A stretch of 64,000 bases of DNA from Escherichia phage vB_EcoM_WL-3, in sequence record MT968995.1. One strand, 5' to 3'. Under the pieces are notes generated by a model. It made no database searches and was not told where the DNA came from. It saw only the letters and a list, made by a program, of their open reading frames with translations. The first letter of the stretch is position 1. The number at the start of each line of letters is the position of its first letter. A program made the translations under genes and the position numbers. This document shows, one piece after another, positions 2,461-61,686 of the stretch.

Positions 2461-4278
2461 CTGGCTCATCCATTCTTTACGAAGATCAGCATTATCTCCC
2501 ATAAGCATTTCAAAAAGCTCTTTCCAGTTCTCAGGAAGTTTAACAACGTCATAAACTGGGTTCTGAATCATTTCACGGTATTCAGATTTTTCCAAAGAGC
2601 CAAGTCCCTTAATATAACGGATGCTATGTTTAGGTAGAGCATCTTTGGCACTCTCATATTCAGCGACTGTATAAAACCATTCTTGTTTTTTACCGACCTG
2701 AGCAATGATTACAGGAGTTTTGACAAAGCGAATTCTTCCTTGTTCAAACAGTTCTGGCCAATTACTAAAAAATCCGAGCAGAGAAGGATAAATGCTTCCT
2801 AGACCATCATGGTCGGCATCGGTCATAATTGCAATATTATGATAATTCAAGTTTTCGGCTTTTTCACCAAGAACTAATCCAGTGATTGCGCAAATATCAA
2901 ACAGTTCTTTGTTTTTAAGCATATCAGCATAAGACATACCCCAACTGTTGAGAACTTTACCGCGCAATGGATAACCGCCATGAAGTTCTTTATCACGAAC
3001 ATCAATAAGATATCCGATAGCAGAATCTCCCTCAGTCAAGAAAAGAGTAGTATCAGCATCTTTACCACAAAGATTCGCTTTGATATGTTTATGAACCTTA
3101 GCTTTAGAGGCCTTTTTAGCTGCTTTAGTTTCTGCTGCCTTTTCTGCCGCCAATTTACGAGCCAAGGCAGCTTCAATAATTGGCATTAAAATTGCTTCAT
3201 TATTCAAAATAGCACGTGAAATCTTTTTAGCATCAAGCTGAATATGACTACGGATTTCACCAAATGGAGAAGTCAGACGCTCTTTAGTTTGAGAATCAAA
3301 TCGCATGTTTTTCATATCACGAACAAACATAACGATAGTCAAACATTCTTTAACACGTGCTTTAGTTACATCAATTTTGAACTTGCGTTTGATTTGTGGA
3401 ATAAGGTCTTCACAAATATCATCCATAACACAGTCAATGTGATGGCCACCATTCTTAGTATGAATGTTATTGACGTACGTTAATTGACGAAAACCATCCG
3501 GTGAACGACCAACCGCAATAGAACAGTTTTCTTGTTCTTGAACGATGGTGTGTTCATCATATTGGCGTGCATATTTCTTAAAATTACCCTGAACCTTTTT
3601 ACCATTAAAGGTAAATTGAATATCAGGATAAACTACTGCAAGTGTCTGGAGACGATCTAGTGTAATGTCAAGATAAACTTGAGATAGCTCATTAGTTTCA
3701 AATGACATAAAATCGGGAATGAAAGTAACGCGAGTTCCTTTCCATTTTCCAGGAATATCTTCCCACGATTTATTTTCCATGCCGTTTGAACAACGAACTA
3801 CAATATTATTTTGACCGTCGCCAGTTTCACCGACAAACATCACAGAAAAAATGTTAGTTAAACTAGAACCAACACCATTCATACCACCGGTGACGCGTTC
3901 TTTATCATCACCAAAGTTACCACCTGCTTTTGGAATAGTCCAGGCAGCAACTGGACCAGGAATTTCTTCACCAGTAGGTGTTTTAACCATCGCCTGTGGA
4001 ATACCACGACCGTTATCTTCAACTGTTACTTGATTGTTTTTGATAGTAACATTAATTTTATTTGCGAATTTAAACTTAGTACGAATACCTTCATCTACTG
4101 AGTTATCGATAATTTCATCAATAAGCTTAACAAGACCAGGTACATACTGAACACTTTCCCATTTACCAAACAGAAAGCGCTCATGCATTTCATTAGCAGA
4201 AGAACCAATGTACATGCCGCTACGCTTTTTGATATGTTCAATATCGCTCAGAATTTTAATTTCATTCTTAATCATCAC
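2458..4278 (-). CDS. 39: DNA topoisomerase II large (ATPase, GyrB-like) subunit, unsplit form
   Basis: 606-aa continuous ORF; T4 has this function split into genes 39 and 60; continuous form as reported for T2/T6-like phages (recall). Confidence 0.85.
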   Translation of the reverse strand: MMIKNEIKILSDIEHIKKRSGMYIGSSANEMHERFLFGKWESVQYVPGLVKLIDEIIDNSVDEGIRTKFKFANKINVTIKNNQVTVEDNGRGIPQAMVKTPTGEEIPGPVAAWTIPKAGGNFGDDKERVTGGMNGVGSSLTNIFSVMFVGETGDGQNNIVVRCSNGMENKSWEDIPGKWKGTRVTFIPDFMSFETNELSQVYLDITLDRLQTLAVVYPDIQFTFNGKKVQGNFKKYARQYDEHTIVQEQENCSIAVGRSPDGFRQLTYVNNIHTKNGGHHIDCVMDDICEDLIPQIKRKFKIDVTKARVKECLTIVMFVRDMKNMRFDSQTKERLTSPFGEIRSHIQLDAKKISRAILNNEAILMPIIEAALARKLAAEKAAETKAAKKASKAKVHKHIKANLCGKDADTTLFLTEGDSAIGYLIDVRDKELHGGYPLRGKVLNSWGMSYADMLKNKELFDICAITGLVLGEKAENLNYHNIAIMTDADHDGLGSIYPSLLGFFSNWPELFEQGRIRFVKTPVIIAQVGKKQEWFYTVAEYESAKDALPKHSIRYIKGLGSLEKSEYREMIQNPVYDVVKLPENWKELFEMLMGDNADLRKEWMSQ

Positions 4279-4325
4279 TTATCCTCGTTTGGTTTCGGGA
4301 ATATTATACTCCGGTAATCATAAAG

Positions 4326-4617: not shown

Positions 4618-4981
4618 ATTTAATGGCTTGAAGAAGACTAATAATTCTCAAGCGGCTTCTTTCATCTTTAACTGTAAAAGAAAGAGGGTCGCCAGATTTC
4701 ATAGTGATAGTGCATTCAAAATCAAAATCTTCAGGAACTTCTTCGAAGAAGTCAAATTCTTCATCATAAATTAGAACATTACTCTGAAAACTATGAAGAA
4801 TTTTTCCATCATTTCCAGATGCTGTACTAATCATTGTAACATTATGGCCTTTCATATCTTCAACGATAAATTCACTTGTAGATATTACGGCATTAATAGA
4901 ACCATTCCTATAAATAGAAGAAAATAGATATTTCTTTTCTTCACCTTCGCGAACACGATATTTCTTACCAATTTTAAACAT
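4610..4981 (-). CDS. hypothetical protein (123 aa)
   Basis: ORF in track, same-strand packing with overlap to the neighbouring gene. Confidence 0.5.
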   Translation of the reverse strand: MFKIGKKYRVREGEEKKYLFSSIYRNGSINAVISTSEFIVEDMKGHNVTMISTASGNDGKILHSFQSNVLIYDEEFDFFEEVPEDFDFECTITMKSGDPLSFTVKDERSRLRIISLLQAIKFE

Positions 4982-14272: not shown

Positions 14273-14791
14273 TTAATAACCTCGATCTTGACGAGCGAAG
14301 TTTTCAGCATTTTTCAGATAATAAAGTTTAAAGATTTCTTCAGCCGTAAGACCGAGACCTTGGAACATATTCAGAACGAAATGAAGAATATCAATCATTT
14401 CAAATTTAATTTCCAACTGGTCTTGCGGAGACAAATCAGTAATTAGAGTTTCACGGCGTTCACCATGCTGTGACTTCCAAGGTTTCCATACAGCAGATGC
14501 ATCTTTTTCACCATTGCTCATACCACCAAGAGAAGTCAGAAGTTCACGGAATTCATCATCAATGTAATCTTTCTGATTACGCAGCCAATCAACAACTTCG
14601 CCTGCAGTAGCCAAATCATCAGGATGACGGTTATATTCAGGTTTATCTTTAGCTAAACGAACCTGCAAAGATTTCTGCATATCAAGCATAACTTGCAGTG
14701 GGTCTTTTTCGTCACCGAGAATATCCCAGTATTCATTTTGAGCTTTATCAGCGCCTTCGATCAGTTGACTACATTCGTTGAAATGTGGCAT
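14273..14791 (-). CDS. 56: dCTPase / dUTPase (MazG-like NTP pyrophosphohydrolase)
   Basis: 172 aa; position and size of T4 gp56. Confidence 0.8.
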   Translation of the reverse strand: MPHFNECSQLIEGADKAQNEYWDILGDEKDPLQVMLDMQKSLQVRLAKDKPEYNRHPDDLATAGEVVDWLRNQKDYIDDEFRELLTSLGGMSNGEKDASAVWKPWKSQHGERRETLITDLSPQDQLEIKFEMIDILHFVLNMFQGLGLTAEEIFKLYYLKNAENFARQDRGY

Positions 14792-14792
14792 G

Positions 14793-15443
14793 TTATTTTT
14801 CCTTTCTTATGAAGTTTTCTATCATATGTCTATAGCAGATATTAGGATAACCTGCCTTGACAGCTATTTTATTAAATTTTGTGCGCTTAGGTCTATTATT
14901 ATAAACCCATAATTCATAAAGCGCATCATAACTATTCCATATTTCTCCTCGCCTAGGATTTGGTAAACCATATCGAGGTGAATTTTTACCGCTAAATCTT
15001 CCTTTTCGGGCTTTACTCATATTAGTCTTGGCTTCATCGGATATAATTTTACCTTTATGAGCTAGACGCATTTTGGCTTTAGTTTCTTCTGGAGTCTTTT
15101 TACCTTTAATCCATGACGGCTTGCCATATCTAGGATTATTTTCACCCGAGAAAAGAACAGAGTTTTGGATTTTAAGGGTTTCTATTAATCTACTTGTTAA
15201 TTTAACACCTTTATTATATCGCATTAAATTTACAGCATAATGCAATCCTCTCACATCTGGATATATTTTAGTTAATAATCTATGAGCTATAAAATGCTCA
15301 CGCGCAGTTAACTCAACAAGATTGTTTTTGCCATCTGCTCCTCCCATACATCTAGGAATTATATGATGGCGTTCTTTATATCCGCCAAGATGCCGGCATT
15401 TAGCTTTTGTAATTAAAGCCGAATAAATTTTTTGGTAATTCAC
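14793..15443 (-). CDS. HNH homing endonuclease (Mob family)
   Basis: N-terminus ...ERHHIIPRCMGG...NNLVELTAREHFIAH, an HNH signature; paralog of the ORF at 52242-52931; sits where T4 has gene 69/dam. Confidence 0.75.
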   Translation of the reverse strand: MNYQKIYSALITKAKCRHLGGYKERHHIIPRCMGGADGKNNLVELTAREHFIAHRLLTKIYPDVRGLHYAVNLMRYNKGVKLTSRLIETLKIQNSVLFSGENNPRYGKPSWIKGKKTPEETKAKMRLAHKGKIISDEAKTNMSKARKGRFSGKNSPRYGLPNPRRGEIWNSYDALYELWVYNNRPKRTKFNKIAVKAGYPNICYRHMIENFIRKEK

Positions 15444-15513
15444 ATATATCCTTTCAATTCATGGATTAGTAGATTAATTATACAATAAATATATAAAGCA
15501 ATAAGGAGGACAT

Positions 15514-15714
15514 ATGGTACAAAAATTAATGGCACTTGTTAATGCCATAAAAGGTAATAAAAAACGTATAGCTTTTACTATTTCTGCTATGATAGGAATT
15601 TTACTTTGGAATTTTGTTTTATCGCCAGTTGCTATTGCTCATGGCGTTAGTATTCCAGTAATTACTCTTGATACATTCGTAGATTTAGCATTTGCTTTAG
15701 TTGGGTTAATTTAA
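15514..15714 (+). CDS. small hydrophobic membrane peptide (66 aa), plus strand
   Basis: strong SD AAGGAGGA 5 nt before the ATG; lies in the only intergenic space here not covered by minus-strand ORFs; two predicted hydrophobic segments. Confidence 0.5.
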   Translation: MVQKLMALVNAIKGNKKRIAFTISAMIGILLWNFVLSPVAIAHGVSIPVITLDTFVDLAFALVGLI

Positions 15715-16739
15715 ATCTTAGCATATTTAGATAGCCGCATTTTAGCCATCAACCCCTGTGCAATATTATTTTTCATATATTCCATAATTTGTTCAGGGGT
15801 TGCACCTTCCTTTCTAATCATATCATTAACATCTTTTGATTTCCAGGGAGATTTGTCCCAAAACATAACCCTTTCTCCTGCATTAACTAATTTAGTCATT
15901 CGTTTAATAGTGTCAGGATGACGAGGTTCATTATCTAAAACCCATACACGTCTATCTTTAAATGGAACAATTTCTAGGTCTAATTGACCACCCGTAATAG
16001 CTATACCATTTTCAATAAAAAGTGAATCTATAGGTCCTTCTAGAACATATACATCACCATCTTTAACTCGTTCAACACCATAGATTTTTGTTGCCTCAGG
16101 ATAAGCTTTGATGGTGATATATTTTTGAGGAGCATCTTTCTTTAATGCACGTCCTTGAAAAGACTCAGCTTTTCCATTAGCATTATAAATTGGAATAACA
16201 AGACGAGGCTCAGGTATTTCCTTTTTATATGTTCCTGGTGCTATACTATTAACTAATTTAGGCCATTCGGTTGTAAACCAAAGATATTTCCATTTATCCT
16301 TTGGAATACAGCGAGCTTTTACGTATTTTATAATTGGATGATCTTCCGCCAGTTTATCTAATCTAATACATGACGGAAGAGATTTAATTATTTTCTTCTC
16401 AGGTTGTTTAGGAAGTTCTTTAGGTTTTTCTACTGAACGACTTTTACCTTTTTCTTTTCTTATTTCAAAGATATACTCACGATATAAATCAGGTTCAAAC
16501 TCCTTTAAATATATTCCGATTGGTGCATGATAGTTACAGTTGTAACAATGAATATTTCCTTCATTATTATCACCGTAATACCATCCACGGGCTTTATTTT
16601 GGTCGGTTTTTGAATCTCCACACACAGGACATCTAAACCGTAATTTAAAAGTTGAACTATTATTTACTTGTGTGAATTTAGGTAAATGAGCTAATGCACG
16701 GTATGCAAACTCATTATCAATCCAAGGTATTGATGACAT
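15711..16739 (-). CDS. 61: DNA primase
   Basis: 342 aa; zinc-ribbon CPVCGDS...CYNC plus TOPRIM-like region; size and position as T4 gp61. Confidence 0.9.
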   Translation of the reverse strand: MSSIPWIDNEFAYRALAHLPKFTQVNNSSTFKLRFRCPVCGDSKTDQNKARGWYYGDNNEGNIHCYNCNYHAPIGIYLKEFEPDLYREYIFEIRKEKGKSRSVEKPKELPKQPEKKIIKSLPSCIRLDKLAEDHPIIKYVKARCIPKDKWKYLWFTTEWPKLVNSIAPGTYKKEIPEPRLVIPIYNANGKAESFQGRALKKDAPQKYITIKAYPEATKIYGVERVKDGDVYVLEGPIDSLFIENGIAITGGQLDLEIVPFKDRRVWVLDNEPRHPDTIKRMTKLVNAGERVMFWDKSPWKSKDVNDMIRKEGATPEQIMEYMKNNIAQGLMAKMRLSKYAKI

Positions 16740-17276: not shown

Positions 17277-17570
17277 TTACTCACCTACCACTTCAGCGAT
17301 GATATTTTTGTTATTAAAGTTTTTATCGCAATACAGAACATAATTATACTGCATTACACCACCAGACTTAAGCTGTTTTTGCACTTCAGCTTTCATTTCA
17401 GGACGATCGCGCTCAACGATATTCATAATATCTGCTTCAATTTGGGTTTCAACCTCAGTCTGATCCGCAGTCATAGACCATTCGCACAAATCTTTATCAT
17501 AACCTGCCATAGCAGGCTGAGCAGCACAAGAAGCTAAAGCAAAAATTGTGGCAAAGATAAATTTTTTCAT
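17277..17570 (-). CDS. sp: Spackle periplasmic protein (superinfection exclusion)
   Basis: 97 aa with signal peptide MKKFIFATIFALASCAAQPAMA; size and position as T4 Sp. Confidence 0.75.
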   Translation of the reverse strand: MKKFIFATIFALASCAAQPAMAGYDKDLCEWSMTADQTEVETQIEADIMNIVERDRPEMKAEVQKQLKSGGVMQYNYVLYCDKNFNNKNIIAEVVGE

Positions 17571-17630: not shown

Positions 17631-17888
17631 CTATTTTAAAACTTTTGCATAATCACATGTTACAAACTGTTTCTCTAGCTTGACGATTTTACGAAAGTAT
17701 CTTTTGCATTGGCGAATCTGCCGCTTCGTAGGGCGAACAGCAAACTTAATAAATTCCACTCGACCAAATGGAGGACTTTCTTCTGCTGGAATATCTAGCA
17801 CCAATTCCCACGTATCTGCAATAAGTGCTTTGAATTGTGTATTTTTCCTAACGTTATACGGAGTAGGTTTAAATAAAACAATATGCAT
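17631..17888 (-). CDS. hypothetical protein (85 aa from internal Met; 61.4 position)
   Basis: track ORF 17631-17930 trimmed to the Met that avoids overlap with dmd. Confidence 0.45.
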   Translation of the reverse strand: MHIVLFKPTPYNVRKNTQFKALIADTWELVLDIPAEESPPFGRVEFIKFAVRPTKRQIRQCKRYFRKIVKLEKQFVTCDYAKVLK

Positions 17889-17889
17889 A

Positions 17890-18072
17890 TTATCCTCGGC
17901 AATCCACTTCACACACTTTCTTGTCATCAATGAAAGCTTTAACTAATGCTTTATTAACTTCAGCATACTGAGTAGTAGCCCATTGAACGTCATCTTTCAT
18001 CATTGTGGTTTCTTTAGTAAACATGCTTTCATTCTTAAACCACCCCATAAAAACTACCTTTACCAATTCCAT
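17890..18072 (-). CDS. dmd: Dmd, discriminator of mRNA degradation (antitoxin against RnlA/LsoA)
   Basis: 60 aa starting MELVKVVFMGWFKNESMF; size and position immediately downstream of gene 41, as in T4. Confidence 0.75.
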   Translation of the reverse strand: MELVKVVFMGWFKNESMFTKETTMMKDDVQWATTQYAEVNKALVKAFIDDKKVCEVDCRG

Positions 18073-39961: not shown

Positions 39962-41775
39962 TGGTGTTTAACCCTATGCATGATTTCTTTATTTTTGCCG
40001 AGATTAAATCCGCGTTCATTCGGATTTCCCAAATAACCACAAGTTCTTCTTATTGTGTTCATCTTTTTAGGATCAGTTTCTCCACAAATAGAACAAACAA
40101 ACCCGTTTTCAGTAGGAGTCATTTCATGGGTACTTCCGCATGTAAAACATTTATCTACTGGCATGTTAACACCAAAATAATCTAAATGTTGTGCAGCATA
40201 ATCCCATACAGCCTCAAGACCTTTTAGGTTATTTTTCATATCAGGAAGTTCAACATAAGAAATGTGACCACCTGTCGCAATGAAATGATATGGGGCTTCG
40301 CGAGAAATTTTTTCAAACGGAGTAATATTTTCTTCTACTGAAACGTGGAAACTATTAGTGTACCAGCCTTTATCGGTAACATCTTTTACACTTCCATATT
40401 TCTCAGTATCAAGTTTACAGAAGCGATAACAAAGGTTTTCAGCAGGTGTAGAATACAAGCTAAAAGCAAAACCAGTTCTTTCAGTCCACTGCTTAAGACG
40501 AGCATTCATTTTAGTTAAAATTTCCTGTCCAATATCACGACCGACAAGAATATTCAATTCGTGAATACCAATGTATCCCAAAGACACTGAACTTCTACCG
40601 TTTTTAAATAACTCAATTATATCGTCATCAGGTTTAAGACGAACCCCGAATGCACCTTCTTGGTAAAGAATAGGAGCAACAGTAGCTTTAACTCCTTTTA
40701 AGGAACTAATTCTACACATCAATGCTTCAAAACACAAATCCATTCGTTCATTGAACAATTCGGCAAATTTCTGTTCATTGAACTGTGTTCCAATATAAGA
40801 ATCTAGCGCAATGCGAGGAAGATTCAGTGTTACAACACCAAGATTATTACGTCCATCAAGAATTTCATTACCAGTCGAATCTTTCCATACACTCAAGAAA
40901 CTACGACAACCCATTGGAGAAACAGGAATAGATGAACCGGTGATAGCTTTATTGTTCTTAGCCGAAATGATGTCAGGATACATTCTTTTACTTGCACACT
41001 CTAGAGCAAGCTGCTTAATATCATAGTTCGGATCGTCTTTATAAAGATTAACACCTTCTTCAACGAACATAACAAGTTTAGGGAAAATAGGAGTTATCCC
41101 GTCACGACCAAGGCCTTTAATACGATTTTTCAGAATTGCTTTCTGAATCATTCGTTCAGTCCAGTCAGTTCCCATGCCAAATGTAATTGTTACAAAAGGC
41201 GTTTGTCCGTTTGAACTAAAGAGAGTATTTACTTCATATTCATAAGCTTGGAATGCATCGTATACGTCTTTTTCTGTTTTAGATTGTGCATAATTCAACG
41301 CATCAGCGATTTGCCATTTTTCTGCATCCTCAATATGTTTTGCATAGGTGCGTTTAACATAAGGAGAAAGGACTTTATCTACATTCGCAAAAGTCGTTCC
41401 ACCATATTGATGGGAAGCAACCTGTGCAGTAATTTGTGCCATAATTGCAGTAGCAACACCGATTGATTTAGGAGTTTCAATCTGTGCATTACCGAGCTTA
41501 AATCCGTTCTCAAGCATTCCTTTTAAATCTACTAAACAGCAATTAGTAAATGGAAGAGCAGGGGAATAATCAATATCATGGAAATGAATAATTCCGCTTT
41601 CATGCGCTTTCATAATAAAAGACGGGACCATATTTTTGGCAATGTGTTTAGACACAATACCAGCCATAAGGTCCCGTTGAGTTGGAAAAACACGAGAATC
41701 TTTATTAGCATTCTCGTTTAAAAGGTCTTTATTAGTTTTATGAATCAATCCTTCAATTTCTTTTTCAATTGTCAT
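39958..41775 (-). CDS. nrdD: anaerobic ribonucleoside-triphosphate reductase, intron-free
   Basis: 605-aa continuous ORF; C-terminal glycyl radical motif RRTCGYLG; T4 nrdD carries a group I intron that is absent here. Confidence 0.9.
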   Translation of the reverse strand: MTIEKEIEGLIHKTNKDLLNENANKDSRVFPTQRDLMAGIVSKHIAKNMVPSFIMKAHESGIIHFHDIDYSPALPFTNCCLVDLKGMLENGFKLGNAQIETPKSIGVATAIMAQITAQVASHQYGGTTFANVDKVLSPYVKRTYAKHIEDAEKWQIADALNYAQSKTEKDVYDAFQAYEYEVNTLFSSNGQTPFVTITFGMGTDWTERMIQKAILKNRIKGLGRDGITPIFPKLVMFVEEGVNLYKDDPNYDIKQLALECASKRMYPDIISAKNNKAITGSSIPVSPMGCRSFLSVWKDSTGNEILDGRNNLGVVTLNLPRIALDSYIGTQFNEQKFAELFNERMDLCFEALMCRISSLKGVKATVAPILYQEGAFGVRLKPDDDIIELFKNGRSSVSLGYIGIHELNILVGRDIGQEILTKMNARLKQWTERTGFAFSLYSTPAENLCYRFCKLDTEKYGSVKDVTDKGWYTNSFHVSVEENITPFEKISREAPYHFIATGGHISYVELPDMKNNLKGLEAVWDYAAQHLDYFGVNMPVDKCFTCGSTHEMTPTENGFVCSICGETDPKKMNTIRRTCGYLGNPNERGFNLGKNKEIMHRVKHQ

Positions 41776-42245
41776 TTTAAACTCTTTCTAAGCTGCTTCT
41801 TAAATGAAGCTATTAACTGTGTTTTGGTGTCAGATTCATTATATTCAAATCCTCTTTGAAGCATCTCGGCCATCATTTCCTCTTTTCCTAAACGAGAAAA
41901 TTCCTTTGATTTATCTCCAACAAAGTTAGGGTGAATATTATTTTGGGTGTAATCGGATTTTAAATAAGTAAGTAAATTTTCTAACCATTCAAGATAATCA
42001 ACACCTTGTCCCTTTAAGCCAGAACGATTAAATTTATGCTTCATTTGACCTTCTGCGGCATTGCAGAGATTACAAAGCAATCCACGTACCTTTCCTGCTT
42101 TTGGTCCATTTAATTCATGGTCATGATCAAGATGATTAGCTTGAACATCAGGATTTAGTTCTCGTTGGCAAATTAAACATTTACCGTTTTGTGCATCATA
42201 AAATTTCTGTTTTTCTTCTTTGTATAATTTGCCAGTCAATAACAT
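41772..42245 (-). CDS. 49: endonuclease VII (Holliday junction resolvase)
   Basis: 157 aa with Cys-rich zinc-binding N-terminus; size and position as T4 gp49. Confidence 0.9.
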   Translation of the reverse strand: MLLTGKLYKEEKQKFYDAQNGKCLICQRELNPDVQANHLDHDHELNGPKAGKVRGLLCNLCNAAEGQMKHKFNRSGLKGQGVDYLEWLENLLTYLKSDYTQNNIHPNFVGDKSKEFSRLGKEEMMAEMLQRGFEYNESDTKTQLIASFKKQLRKSLK

Positions 42246-42247
42246 AA

Positions 42248-42283
42248 TAAATACCCTTACCTTAAATAGATAAGGGTATTTAT
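42248..42283 (-). promoter_or_regulatory. stem-loop immediately upstream of the gene 49 start
   Basis: AAATACCCTTA / TAAGGGTATTT inverted repeat (11-bp arms) ending 5 nt before the ATG; T4 gene 49 is known to have hairpin-controlled early translation. Confidence 0.55.
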
Positions 42284-42287
42284 TATT

Positions 42288-55266: not shown

Positions 55267-55479
55267 TCATTTTTGTCCTGTATTTACTTTATGCCGATGC
55301 ACGGCCTTAACTTTATCAAGGTATTTTTCAAAATTTCGCAATCTAGTATAGTCTGCCGGAGATTGGTTGAGTGATACTTCTCGACGCAAAGCTGAAATGA
55401 TATTTCCAACTTCCCTACGAATTTCATCTAATTGAAGAACAGTAAGATTGCGAAGTTGCTTTTCAGTTAATTGTAGCAT
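55267..55479 (-). CDS. hypothetical protein (rI.1 position)
   Basis: 70-aa ORF. Confidence 0.45.
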
Positions 55480-55521
55480 ATATACCCCTTTAGTTAGATA
55501 AACCTATTTATAACTTTTGCA

Positions 55522-61155: not shown

Positions 61156-61686
<531 letters not shown>

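What the first reader, a model, noticed from the sequence alone, without database searches (positions are those of the whole stretch)
15444..15714. Lone plus-strand ORF for a 66-aa hydrophobic peptide, convergent with primase gene 61
This is the only convincing plus-strand gene in a 64-kb minus-strand block. It has a near-perfect SD (AAGGAGGA, 5 nt, ATG), fills an intergenic gap exactly, and sits next to an HNH homing endonuclease that occupies the T4 dam/gene 69 slot. Small membrane peptides in this context can be exclusion factors, holin-like proteins or cargo of the endonuclease cassette.
Basis: seen in the sequence. Interest (0 to 1): 0.55.

Follow-up and report, generated by a model that had tools for sequence, protein, structure and literature searches.

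The report
Conserved late-gene membrane microprotein beside T4 primase
The lone plus-strand ORF is a real, conserved 66-residue membrane-protein gene found next to the primase gene in T4 and its relatives (though missing from the T4 reference annotation), probably switched on late in infection, unrelated to the neighbouring homing endonuclease, and still of unknown function.

Summary
Window 15514-15714 (+) is a 66-aa ORF with SD AAGGAGGA. It fills the gap between an HNH gene and primase gene 61, and its stop codon overlaps the gene 61 stop (TTAA). It is a genuine gene:
- dN/dS is about 0.1-0.2, and only this frame is open.
- It occurs in about 700 phage records.
- It keeps the same slot and strand in at least seven Tevenvirinae genera (RB69ORF029w, RB32ORF030w/VR7ORF033w, S16 gp16.1).
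- T4 itself has it in the dam-61 gap, where NC_000866.4 annotates nothing.

It is not HNH cargo, because only 29 records carry the HNH at this place. It matches PHROG 2024 (unknown function) and nothing in Pfam, NCBIfam, PADLOC or PDB.

The predicted protein has a cationic N-terminus facing inside, one TM helix and a ~25-aa C-terminal tail facing outside. Its conserved core is WN[FY]xxxP..A.G..P...[DE].

An AATAAATA box lies 22 nt before the ATG. This motif is about four-fold depleted in the window and otherwise precedes soc, e and gene 49. It is kept in 8 of 9 lineages, so gp55-dependent late transcription is likely, though no transcript data could be retrieved.

Function is inferred only: a late inner-membrane microprotein, possibly lysis-related. 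The family was already annotated as "hypothetical". Interest is moderate.

The parts
15484..15491 (+). AATAAATA: T4 late-promoter-type box (consensus TATAAATA, A at -13 variant). Inferred start of transcription is about 15497, giving a ~17-nt leader.
   Evidence: One search shows VATAAATA only 4 times in the window against 30 expected. One search shows TATAAATA 6 times against 11 expected. One search shows that 6 of the 10 ATAAATA copies lie 13-31 nt before an SD+ATG gene (soc, e, gene 49, a 70-aa ORF, this ORF; identities). ATAAATA is kept upstream of the orthologues in T4, VR7, Mosigvirus/RB69, Boboto, Entb_45 and JS98. PMC2988020 reports A(-13) as the commonest T4 late-promoter variant. No transcript data were available.
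15503..15510 (+). Shine-Dalgarno AAGGAGGA, 3 nt before the ATG
   Evidence: Read from the sequence. Strong SDs are kept in all orthologues.
15514..15714 (+). CDS for a 66-aa membrane microprotein (PHROG 2024; orthologue of RB69ORF029w / RB32ORF030w / VR7ORF033w / S16 gp16.1; unannotated in T4 NC_000866.4)
15568..15636 (+). Codons 19-41: the single confident transmembrane helix. It contains the near-invariant W32-N33 and P38.
   Evidence: Hydropathy and Hessa scale; AlphaFold helix 16-42, pLDDT 81-85; alignments; Nolan et al. predicted TM 21-41 for RB69ORF029w.
15637..15711 (+). Codons 42-66: C-terminal tail (AHG..P loop plus a short hydrophobic/acidic helix 52-63), predicted to face outside. 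It is not TM-competent on its own.
   Evidence: conserved G44, P48, acidic residue 53, V56
15711..15714 (.). TTAA: overlapping convergent stop codons of the ORF and gene 61
   Evidence: Read from the sequence. The same tail-to-tail overlap occurs in T4, Mosigvirus/RB69, S16 and Entb_45. It is absent in VR7 (a paralogue lies in between) and in Boboto (an 18-nt spacer with a hairpin).
15529..15548 (-). Terminator-like hairpin ATGGCA..TGCCAT + TAATTTTTGT on the minus strand, inside codons 6-12 of the ORF. It probably ends gene 61 transcripts.
   Evidence: The fPS-2 record annotates a minus-strand terminator at the same place.
15477..15500 (-). Middle-promoter-like site on the minus strand (MotA box TGCTTTA at 15500-15494, 11-nt spacer, TATAAT at 15482-15477) that serves the HNH/56 genes. 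The plus-strand late box lies inside its spacer.
   Evidence: Read from the sequence. fPS-2 annotates a 'predicted middle promoter' here. The MotA-box consensus is from my own knowledge.
15711..16739 (-). Context: gene 61 DNA primase (342 aa), convergent partner
14793..15443 (-). Context: free-standing HNH/NUMOD3 homing endonuclease (216 aa) sitting where T4 has dam. It is not part of the ORF's unit.

Best explanation
The ORF is a resident, conserved gene of T4-type phages (subfamily Tevenvirinae) that encodes a 57-70-residue single-pass inner-membrane protein.

Shown:
- The frame is under purifying selection.
- The gene keeps its slot and orientation, tail-to-tail with primase gene 61, across at least seven genera.
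- It is independent of the HNH endonuclease.

Inferred from sequence (transcription): it is transcribed clockwise, against the surrounding early genes. Transcription starts from a gp55-type late promoter (AATAAATA at 15484-15491) that gives a ~17-nt leader carrying a strong SD, so the protein is made late in infection. No plus-strand terminator is predicted behind it, so the late RNA probably runs on as antisense to gene 61.

Inferred from sequence (protein):
- The cationic N-terminus (4-7 K/R) stays in the cytoplasm.
- Residues ~19-41 span the membrane.
- The ~25-residue C-terminal tail lies at the periplasmic face.
- Conservation is concentrated in the outer half of the helix and the juxtamembrane loop (W32-N33, P38, G44, P48, acidic 53).
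- A conserved mid-membrane Asn of this kind typically mediates helix-helix packing, so the protein most likely self-associates or docks on another membrane protein.

Process served (weakest step, about 0.25-0.3): an envelope event at the end of infection, with control of lysis timing (a holin/antiholin/spanin partner, or a small pore-former) as my first choice.
For: Real gene:
- dN/dS is 0.10-0.30 across most Tequatrovirus pairs with substitutions, and replacements are conservative (V/I, A/T, S/N).
- Only this frame is open. Omega is 0.17 against 0.08 for gene 61. Variable sites by codon position are 7/2/11.
- It is present in 695 phage records, 685 of them at 80% coverage or more.
- Strong SDs are kept in all lineages.

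Resident, not cargo:
- The same slot between 56/dam/HNH and 61, on the plus strand, is used in Tequatrovirus, Mosigvirus, Gaprivervirus, Dhakavirus, Jiaodavirus, Gelderlandvirus and Kanagawavirus.
- The HNH arrangement is in only 29 records.
- Homology with T4 resumes at the ATAAATA box.

Late expression:
- ATAAATA occurs 10 times in the window against about 41 expected.
- Six of the ten copies lie 13-31 nt upstream of SD+ATG genes, namely soc, endolysin e, endonuclease VII, a 70-aa ORF and this ORF.
- Gene 49 uses the same AATAAATA variant.
- The box is kept in 8 of 9 lineages although the flanks are unalignable.
- A(-13) is the commonest variant among the listed T4 late promoters (PMC2988020), and T(-13) is poorly conserved in relatives (PMC1524935).
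- Gene e is served by two late promoters just upstream of its RBS (PMC3014915).
- There is no sigma-70-like plus-strand promoter upstream.

Membrane topology:
- One TM segment passes the KD and Hessa scales, and the C-tail does not.
- The AlphaFold model has helices 2-12, 16-42 and 52-63, mean pLDDT 77.6.
- Nolan et al. predicted one TM for RB69ORF029w.

Late/envelope theme outside T4-type phages: divergent homologues (PHROG 2024, E 6e-11) lie co-oriented in a siphovirus-type late block, after the tail-tip gene and, in DCP80, about 1.3 kb upstream of an endolysin.
Against: - No transcript, ribosome-footprint or peptide evidence could be retrieved. The T4 dRNA-seq start-site table is not held.
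- Nolan et al. listed no late promoter for RB69ORF029w.
- T4 itself has GATAAATA (a rarer -13 variant), and S16 has ATTAAATA.
- Against a lysis role: no match to any holin, antiholin or spanin family. There is no charged C-terminal tail. The gene is not next to e or t. To my knowledge, classical T4 lysis and r mutants do not map to the dam-61 interval.
- The siphovirus neighbours are mostly tail genes rather than a clean lysis cassette.
- The single 'Holin' label (OE5505 orthologue) has no experimental basis that I could find.
- Two records show the ORF split in two pieces, which is compatible with dispensability in the laboratory.
Confidence: 0.6

Rival explanations
1. Small holin or pore-former (viroporin-like). 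The protein oligomerises through its Asn-containing TM helix and depolarises or permeabilises the inner membrane late in infection, acting in its own right rather than as a regulator.
For: It is small, has a single TM and a conserved intramembrane Asn. The promoter is of the late type. The N-in/C-out layout is like the one-TM T4 holin T (own knowledge). DCP80 has a homologue on the same strand as, and near, an endolysin with no other obvious holin beside it. One UniProt entry is labelled 'Holin'.
Against: No holin family matches. There is no charged cytoplasmic C-tail. T4-type phages already have holin T, and the gene is far from the lysis genes. The 'Holin' label is unsupported. The fold search finds only family members.
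Confidence: 0.15
2. Superinfection-exclusion or entry-blocking factor. A small inner-membrane protein blocks DNA entry by later-arriving phages, like Imm or HK97 gp15-type morons.
For: The inner-membrane location is predicted. The distant homologues sit just downstream of a tail-tip gene, which from my own knowledge is a classic moron/exclusion position in siphoviruses.
Against: The promoter reading is late rather than early, and there is no sigma-70-type promoter, whereas T4 Imm and Sp are early/middle genes on the other strand. No similarity to Imm/Sp families or to PADLOC models was found.
Confidence: 0.12
3. The main product is RNA. The late plus-strand transcript acts as antisense to the 3' end of primase (gene 61) mRNA and to the early read-through RNA, and the peptide is secondary.
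For: The stop codons overlap, and no plus-strand terminator is predicted for about 3 kb, so a late transcript must run antisense into gene 61. This tail-to-tail arrangement is conserved in most genera. T4 is known to transcribe both strands at several sites at different times (PMC2988020).
Against: Purifying selection acts on the amino-acid sequence, and the SD and protein motifs are conserved across genera with about 30-50% identity. An RNA-only role does not require this. VR7 and Boboto break the overlap.
Confidence: 0.08
4. Cargo or accessory gene of the HNH homing-endonuclease cassette.
For: It is adjacent to the HNH gene in this window.
Against: About 700 records have the ORF against 29 with the HNH here. 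T4, RB69, VR7, JS98, S16, Entb_45 and Boboto have the ORF without this HNH. The homology break lies upstream of the ORF's promoter box.
Confidence: 0.01
5. Spurious ORF. The stretch would be conserved only as the gene 61 3' UTR/terminator and the promoter region of the downstream minus-strand gene.
For: A minus-strand terminator-like hairpin and a middle-promoter-like site do overlap the region. T4's reference annotation has no gene here.
Against: Substitutions are dominated by third codon positions, omega is 0.17, and the other frames are closed. The ORF stays open with a matching length (57-70 aa) and motif at 25-50% identity in other genera, where the DNA is unalignable.
Confidence: 0.03

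Closest known systems
PHROG 2024 / RB69ORF029w / RB32ORF030w / VR7ORF033w / S16 gp16.1 (uncharacterised small proteins of T4-type phages)
   Same: Full-length match (E 1.9e-30, residues 2-66 on profile 1-65). Same length, same slot next to gene 61, same strand. One predicted TM.
   Different: Nothing: this is the family it belongs to. The family has no assigned function and no literature that I could find.
T4 holin T and antiholin RI (one-TM, N-in/C-out lysis proteins of T4; own knowledge)
   Same: Late expression (inferred here), a single N-in/C-out membrane span, and action at the inner membrane or periplasmic face.
   Different: No sequence or profile similarity. T (218 aa) and RI (97 aa) have folded periplasmic domains, whereas this protein has only about 25 residues outside. 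It is not in a lysis locus.
Canonical small holins (lambda S, phage 21 S68, T7 gp17.5; own knowledge)
   Same: Size (60-110 aa), hydrophobicity, late timing.
   Different: Those have 2-3 TM segments and a charged C-terminal cytoplasmic tail. Here there is one TM, the charge is at the N-terminus and the C-terminus is hydrophobic/acidic. No Pfam holin model matches.
T4 Imm and Sp (early membrane/periplasmic exclusion proteins; own knowledge)
   Same: Small envelope proteins of T4. sp lies about 1.6 kb away in this window (17277-17570, minus strand).
   Different: They are on the opposite strand and belong to the early/middle class. No homology was found.
Hok/Gef-type and other small single-TM membrane toxins or regulators (own knowledge)
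   Same: A cationic N-terminus inside, one TM and a short C-terminal tail outside. Overlapping antisense transcription occurs at the locus.
   Different: No sequence similarity. No evidence of toxicity. It is a phage late gene rather than a toxin-antitoxin pair.

Membership tests
PHROG 2024 (uncharacterised T4-type small protein) | Full-length profile match | tested here: met
   E 1.9e-30, 105.5 bits, residues 2-66 on profile 1-65/65
PHROG 2024 (uncharacterised T4-type small protein) | Syntenic position: plus strand, between gene 56/dam and gene 61 | tested here: met
   Seven genera show it
T4 late gene | TATAAATA-type box about 6 nt upstream of the transcript start, close to the RBS | tested here: met
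   AATAAATA at 15484-15491, 22 nt before the ATG (7/8, the common A-13 variant). The motif is about 4-fold depleted in the window and otherwise sits before soc, e, 49 and a 70-aa ORF. It is conserved in 8 of 9 lineages.
T4 late gene | gp55/gp33/gp45-dependent transcript appearing after DNA replication starts | not testable with these tools
   A T4 dRNA-seq start-site table exists (10.1101/2024.04.04.588121) but is not held
Holin | Small protein with at least one TM segment | tested here: met
   One TM, residues ~19-41
Holin | Highly charged, hydrophilic C-terminal tail | tested here: not met
   In the window protein the C-terminal 25 residues have 0 K/R and 2 D/E and are hydrophobic. The charge cluster is N-terminal.
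Holin | Match to a described holin family | tested here: not met
   No Pfam or NCBIfam family matches; the only PHROG match is one of unknown function. Fold searches return only family members.
Holin | Encoded in a lysis cassette next to the endolysin or spanins | tested here: not met
   It lies between the HNH/56 genes and 61. The endolysin e is at 61156-61650, about 45 kb away. Only the distant DCP80 homologue lies about 1.3 kb from an endolysin.
Holin | Membrane permeabilisation that releases endolysin at a programmed time | not testable with these tools
   Needs expression and lysis assays
Homing-endonuclease cassette cargo | Co-occurrence and co-mobility with the endonuclease gene | tested here: not met
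   695 records hold the ORF against 29 with the HNH at this place. The homology break lies upstream of the ORF's promoter.
Superinfection exclusion proteins Imm/Sp | Homology to Imm or Sp, or early/middle expression | tested here: not met
   No such family match. There is no sigma-70-like plus-strand promoter, and a late-type box is present instead.

The most novel reading that the evidence does not exclude
T4 and its relatives carry an overlooked late gene, absent from the T4 reference annotation. Its membrane microprotein could be a missing component of the end-of-infection envelope programme, for example a partner of holin T/antiholin RI that tunes lysis timing or lysis inhibition. Its late transcript could at the same time silence primase mRNA by antisense pairing. 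That would make one 200-nt locus a dual protein-and-RNA switch from replication to lysis.
Probability: 0.12. Interest if true: 0.7.

Novelty: new member of a known kind. Interest (0 to 1): 0.4.

Why it matters
T4 is one of the best-annotated genomes in biology, yet its reference record has no gene in the dam-61 gap. This ORF lies there under purifying selection and is conserved across at least seven genera. If the late-promoter reading is right, it is one of very few clockwise, late-transcribed genes embedded in the counter-clockwise early region. Its RNA would then be antisense to the primase message. A conserved late inner-membrane microprotein is a natural candidate for unexplained aspects of T-even lysis control or envelope handling, and it is easy to test genetically. 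Against that, the family is already annotated as 'hypothetical protein' in hundreds of genomes and has its own PHROG. So the gene's existence is not new, and the function proposed here is inference only.

Tried and rejected
- Pfam, NCBIfam and PADLOC scans of the protein gave no family.
- A PDB sequence-profile search gave only chance TM matches, E > 0.4.
- Foldseek of the AlphaFold model against PDB gave nothing. Against BFVD it returned only family members.
- Literature searches for the ORF names (RB69ORF029w, ORF030w, VR7ORF033w) gave 0 papers.
- Searches for T4 ribosome profiling, re-annotation or transcript mapping of this gap found nothing usable.
- The fPS-2 paper and its supplement do not mention g031.
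- The T4 omics paper used the reference annotation.
- The T4 dRNA-seq preprint has the relevant start-site table, but it is not held as text.
- The Miller 2003 T4 review is not held.
- Pattern-based locus scans with the broad alignment failed because it is too divergent. The single-sequence viral scan gave only 5 close loci.
- The 'Holin' label of the OE5505 orthologue was followed up. The four papers that mention OE5505 are about other phages and each mentions it only once or twice; I did not open them.
- I considered reading the siphovirus context as a lysis cassette and dropped it. The neighbours are tail-module genes plus endonuclease VII, and an endolysin is nearby only in DCP80.
- The HNH-cargo and spurious-ORF readings were rejected on distribution and codon evidence.

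Full report
**1. What is there**

The window is the early region of a T4-type phage (Tequatrovirus). On the minus strand the gene order is 41, dmd, 61.4, sp, 61.2, 61.1, 61, [gap], HNH endonuclease, 56, soc.

The gap 15444-15710 holds one plus-strand ORF, 15514-15714, with ATG start and 66 aa. It is preceded by AAGGAGGA (15503-15510) and a 3-nt spacer. Its TAA overlaps the stop codon of primase gene 61 inside the palindrome TTAA (15711-15714).

A crude map of minus-strand ORFs covers 94% of the 64 kb. This is the only plus-strand ORF with ATG + SD that lies in a gap.

**2. It is a real gene**

- Seven Tequatrovirus alleles give dN/dS of about 0.10-0.30 in most pairs. Third-position changes dominate (for example 4/1/10) and replacements are conservative.
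- For window versus T4 the annotated frame has omega 0.17 and no stops. Every other frame has 1-10 stops. Gene 61 in the same pair has omega 0.08.
- tblastn finds the protein in 695 phage records, 685 of them at 80% coverage or more.
- About 190 of those hits are only 46-54% identical and belong to other genera.
- Every source name that was read is 'hypothetical' or 'uncharacterised'.

**3. It is resident, not endonuclease cargo**

The same small plus-strand ORF lies between gene 56 (or dam, or an HNH gene) and gene 61 in:
- T4;
- Gaprivervirus VR7, as VR7ORF033w, 'similar to RB32 ORF030w';
- Mosigvirus phi25-307, JS09 and RB69, as RB69ORF029w;
- Jiaodavirus Boboto;
- Gelderlandvirus S16, as gp16.1;
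- Kanagawavirus Entb_45;
- Dhakavirus JS98.

Most of these keep the same overlap of stop codons with gene 61.

Only 29 records hold the HNH-ORF-61 arrangement of this window. In an alignment with T4, homology resumes exactly at the ATAAATA box in front of the ORF. Upstream of that point the window resembles the gene 56 leader of VR7, RB69 and JS98. The HNH gene (PHROG 655, NUMOD3) therefore replaced dam without touching the ORF's unit.

T4 itself carries the ORF at about 17738-17938. This is the 310-nt dam-61 gap, where NC_000866.4 annotates nothing.

**4. Family**

The protein matches PHROG 2024 (unknown function) over its full length. It matches nothing in Pfam, NCBIfam, PADLOC or PDB.

An exhaustive profile search of 1.84 billion representatives finds only 15 clusters of 45-70 aa. 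Word-indexed searches find 33-80 clusters, nearly all on 160-175 kb T4-type contigs.

There are two subtypes:
- Subtype A begins M.KL..AIKGNKKR.
- Subtype B begins MG[ST][IL]FYQIWKL.

VR7 has both in tandem, with the second unannotated. JS98 has only B, also unannotated.

The shared core is WN[FYL]xxxP..A..G..(L)P...[LI][DE]. P38 is invariant, and W32, N33, G44 and P48 are near-invariant.

The most divergent members (P0088, P0131; 69 aa; PHROG 2024 at E 6e-11) are not in T4-type phages. They sit in a 38% GC siphovirus-type block, all on one strand:
- a tail-tip protein;
- a 94-aa protein with a TM segment and a coiled coil;
- endonuclease VII;
- the family member;
- a 179-aa minor-tail-like protein;
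- a 105-aa protein;
- then either a serine recombinase or a tail chaperone plus tape measure.

The same block in the record 'Escherichia phage DCP80' contains an unannotated 57-aa member. It lies about 1.3 kb upstream of a T4-lysozyme-like endolysin.

**5. Expression signals**

No sigma-70-like plus-strand promoter precedes the ORF. Instead AATAAATA lies at 15484-15491, 22 nt before the ATG.

- T4 late promoters are TATAAATA at -13 to -6 (PMC1524935).
- A at -13 is the commonest variant, at 9 of 50 listed sites (PMC2988020).
- In this window the motif is strongly avoided. TATAAATA occurs 6 times against 11 expected. VATAAATA occurs 4 times against 30 +/- 5 expected.
- Of the 10 copies, 6 lie 13-31 nt upstream of an SD+ATG gene. 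These genes are soc, endolysin e (two boxes, as described for T4 in PMC3014915), endonuclease VII/gene 49 (also AATAAATA), a 70-aa PHROG 1826 ORF, and this ORF.
- ATAAATA is also present 12-33 nt before the ATG in T4, VR7, Mosigvirus/RB69, Boboto, Entb_45 and JS98, although the surrounding DNA is not alignable. S16 has ATTAAATA.

I therefore infer gp55-dependent late transcription (about 0.75), starting near 15497. This step is not shown:
- Nolan et al. did not list a late promoter for RB69ORF029w.
- I could retrieve no transcript data.

No plus-strand terminator is predicted for about 3 kb downstream. Such a transcript would therefore run antisense into gene 61.

The minus strand uses the same 270 nt for two other signals:
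- a terminator-like hairpin after gene 61, at 15548-15529, inside codons 6-12;
- a MotA-box middle-promoter-like site for HNH/56, whose spacer contains the late box.

**6. The protein**

Hydropathy and the Hessa scale give one TM segment (about 19-41) in all family members. The segment is preceded by 4-7 Lys/Arg. In most members the C-tail has 0-1 K/R and 1-2 acidic residues, and its insertion energy sum (6-12 kcal/mol) argues against a second span. AlphaFold gives helices 2-12, 16-42 and 52-63, with mean pLDDT 77.6.

By the positive-inside rule the N-terminus is cytoplasmic and the tail periplasmic. Conservation is concentrated in the outer half of the TM helix and the juxtamembrane loop. Together with an invariant intramembrane Asn, this suggests helix-helix association with itself or with a partner (inference).

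**7. Function**

Function remains inferred. My best reading is a late inner-membrane microprotein acting on an envelope event, with lysis timing the first candidate (about 0.25-0.3).

Holin membership fails on three tested features:
- there is no charged C-tail;
- no holin family matches;
- the gene is not in a lysis cassette.

The one 'Holin' label (OE5505 orthologue) has no experimental basis that I could find.

The remaining readings fare as follows:
- Exclusion factor fits the predicted late timing poorly.
- An RNA-only (antisense) role does not explain selection on the protein.
- HNH cargo and spurious ORF are rejected.

**8. Novelty and score**

The family was already annotated as 'hypothetical' in hundreds of genomes and has a PHROG. 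What appears to be new is:
- the omission from the T4 reference annotation;
- the conserved late-promoter box on the 'wrong' strand of the early region;
- the family-wide synteny;
- the two subtypes;
- the siphovirus relatives.

Interest is moderate (0.4). The finding is a new member of a known kind: a small late phage membrane protein.

Noticed in passing
L001 3739-3939 (= NC_000866.4 about 17738-17938, + strand): The T4 reference record annotates nothing in the 310-nt dam-61 gap. Yet it encodes a 66-aa orthologue (94% identical) with SD AAGGAGGA and GATAAATA upstream. This looks like a missing gene in the T4 reference annotation.
   Followed up: yes
L008 2201-2470 (VR7, + strand) and L015 1420-1620 (JS98, + strand): Unannotated paralogues of a second subtype (MG[ST][IL]FYQIWKL...WNLLVVP...). 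VR7 has both subtypes in tandem, and its second copy (89 aa) runs 72 nt into the 3' end of gene 61 on the opposite strand. JS98 has only the second subtype, preceded by AATAAATA.
   Followed up: partly
whole window, both strands: The heptamer ATAAATA is about 4-fold under-represented (10 copies against about 41 expected from dinucleotide-preserving shuffles). This is consistent with selection against stray late promoters. Three copies (4910+, 59613+, 62432+) have no obvious downstream gene.
   Followed up: partly
window 42246-42284: Two AATAAATA boxes on opposite strands form the arms of a palindrome (AATAAATACCCTTA...TAAGGGTATTTATT) just upstream of the 157-aa endonuclease VII gene (41772-42245, -). 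The late box thus lies inside a hairpin, the arrangement known for T4 gene 49 (own knowledge).
   Followed up: partly
window 55267-55479 (-), box at 55505-55512: A 70-aa ORF (PHROG 1826, unknown function) has a perfect TATAAATA box 25 nt upstream and an SD. It is another probable late gene of unknown function inside the early region.
   Followed up: no
window 14793-15443 (-) and 15444-15513: The HNH/NUMOD3 endonuclease replaces dam. It abuts gene 56 with a 1-nt gap (56 starts at 14791, the HNH ends at 14793). It has taken over a leader (tgaattgaaagga + MotA-box/TATAAT) that resembles the gene 56 leader of VR7, RB69 and JS98. segF is absent between 56 and soc. Phage ELT1 carries both dam and this HNH.
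   Followed up: partly
L018 (PQ671644.1 'Escherichia phage DCP80', 18614-29141): The record is labelled Gaprivervirus (141 kb) but contains a siphovirus-type block (1266-aa tail-tip protein, endonuclease VII, endolysin), so it may be a chimeric assembly. Two ORFs there are unannotated: a 153-aa TM + coiled-coil protein (3859-4320) and the 57-aa family member (4798-4971).
   Followed up: no
H101 (LR597657.1 T4_ev240) and H131 (MZ502379.1 Shinka): In these two records the ORF matches in two pieces (a frameshift or a sequencing error). P0025 (OE5505) has a 3-residue deletion in the TM helix, and ERS-1 is truncated to 51 residues matched. This suggests the gene is dispensable under some conditions.
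   Followed up: no
L016/L017 3260-3544 (+): In the siphovirus-type contigs a 94-aa protein with an N-terminal TM segment and a long coiled coil (i-spanin-like or XhlA-like architecture) lies two genes upstream of the family member.
   Followed up: no
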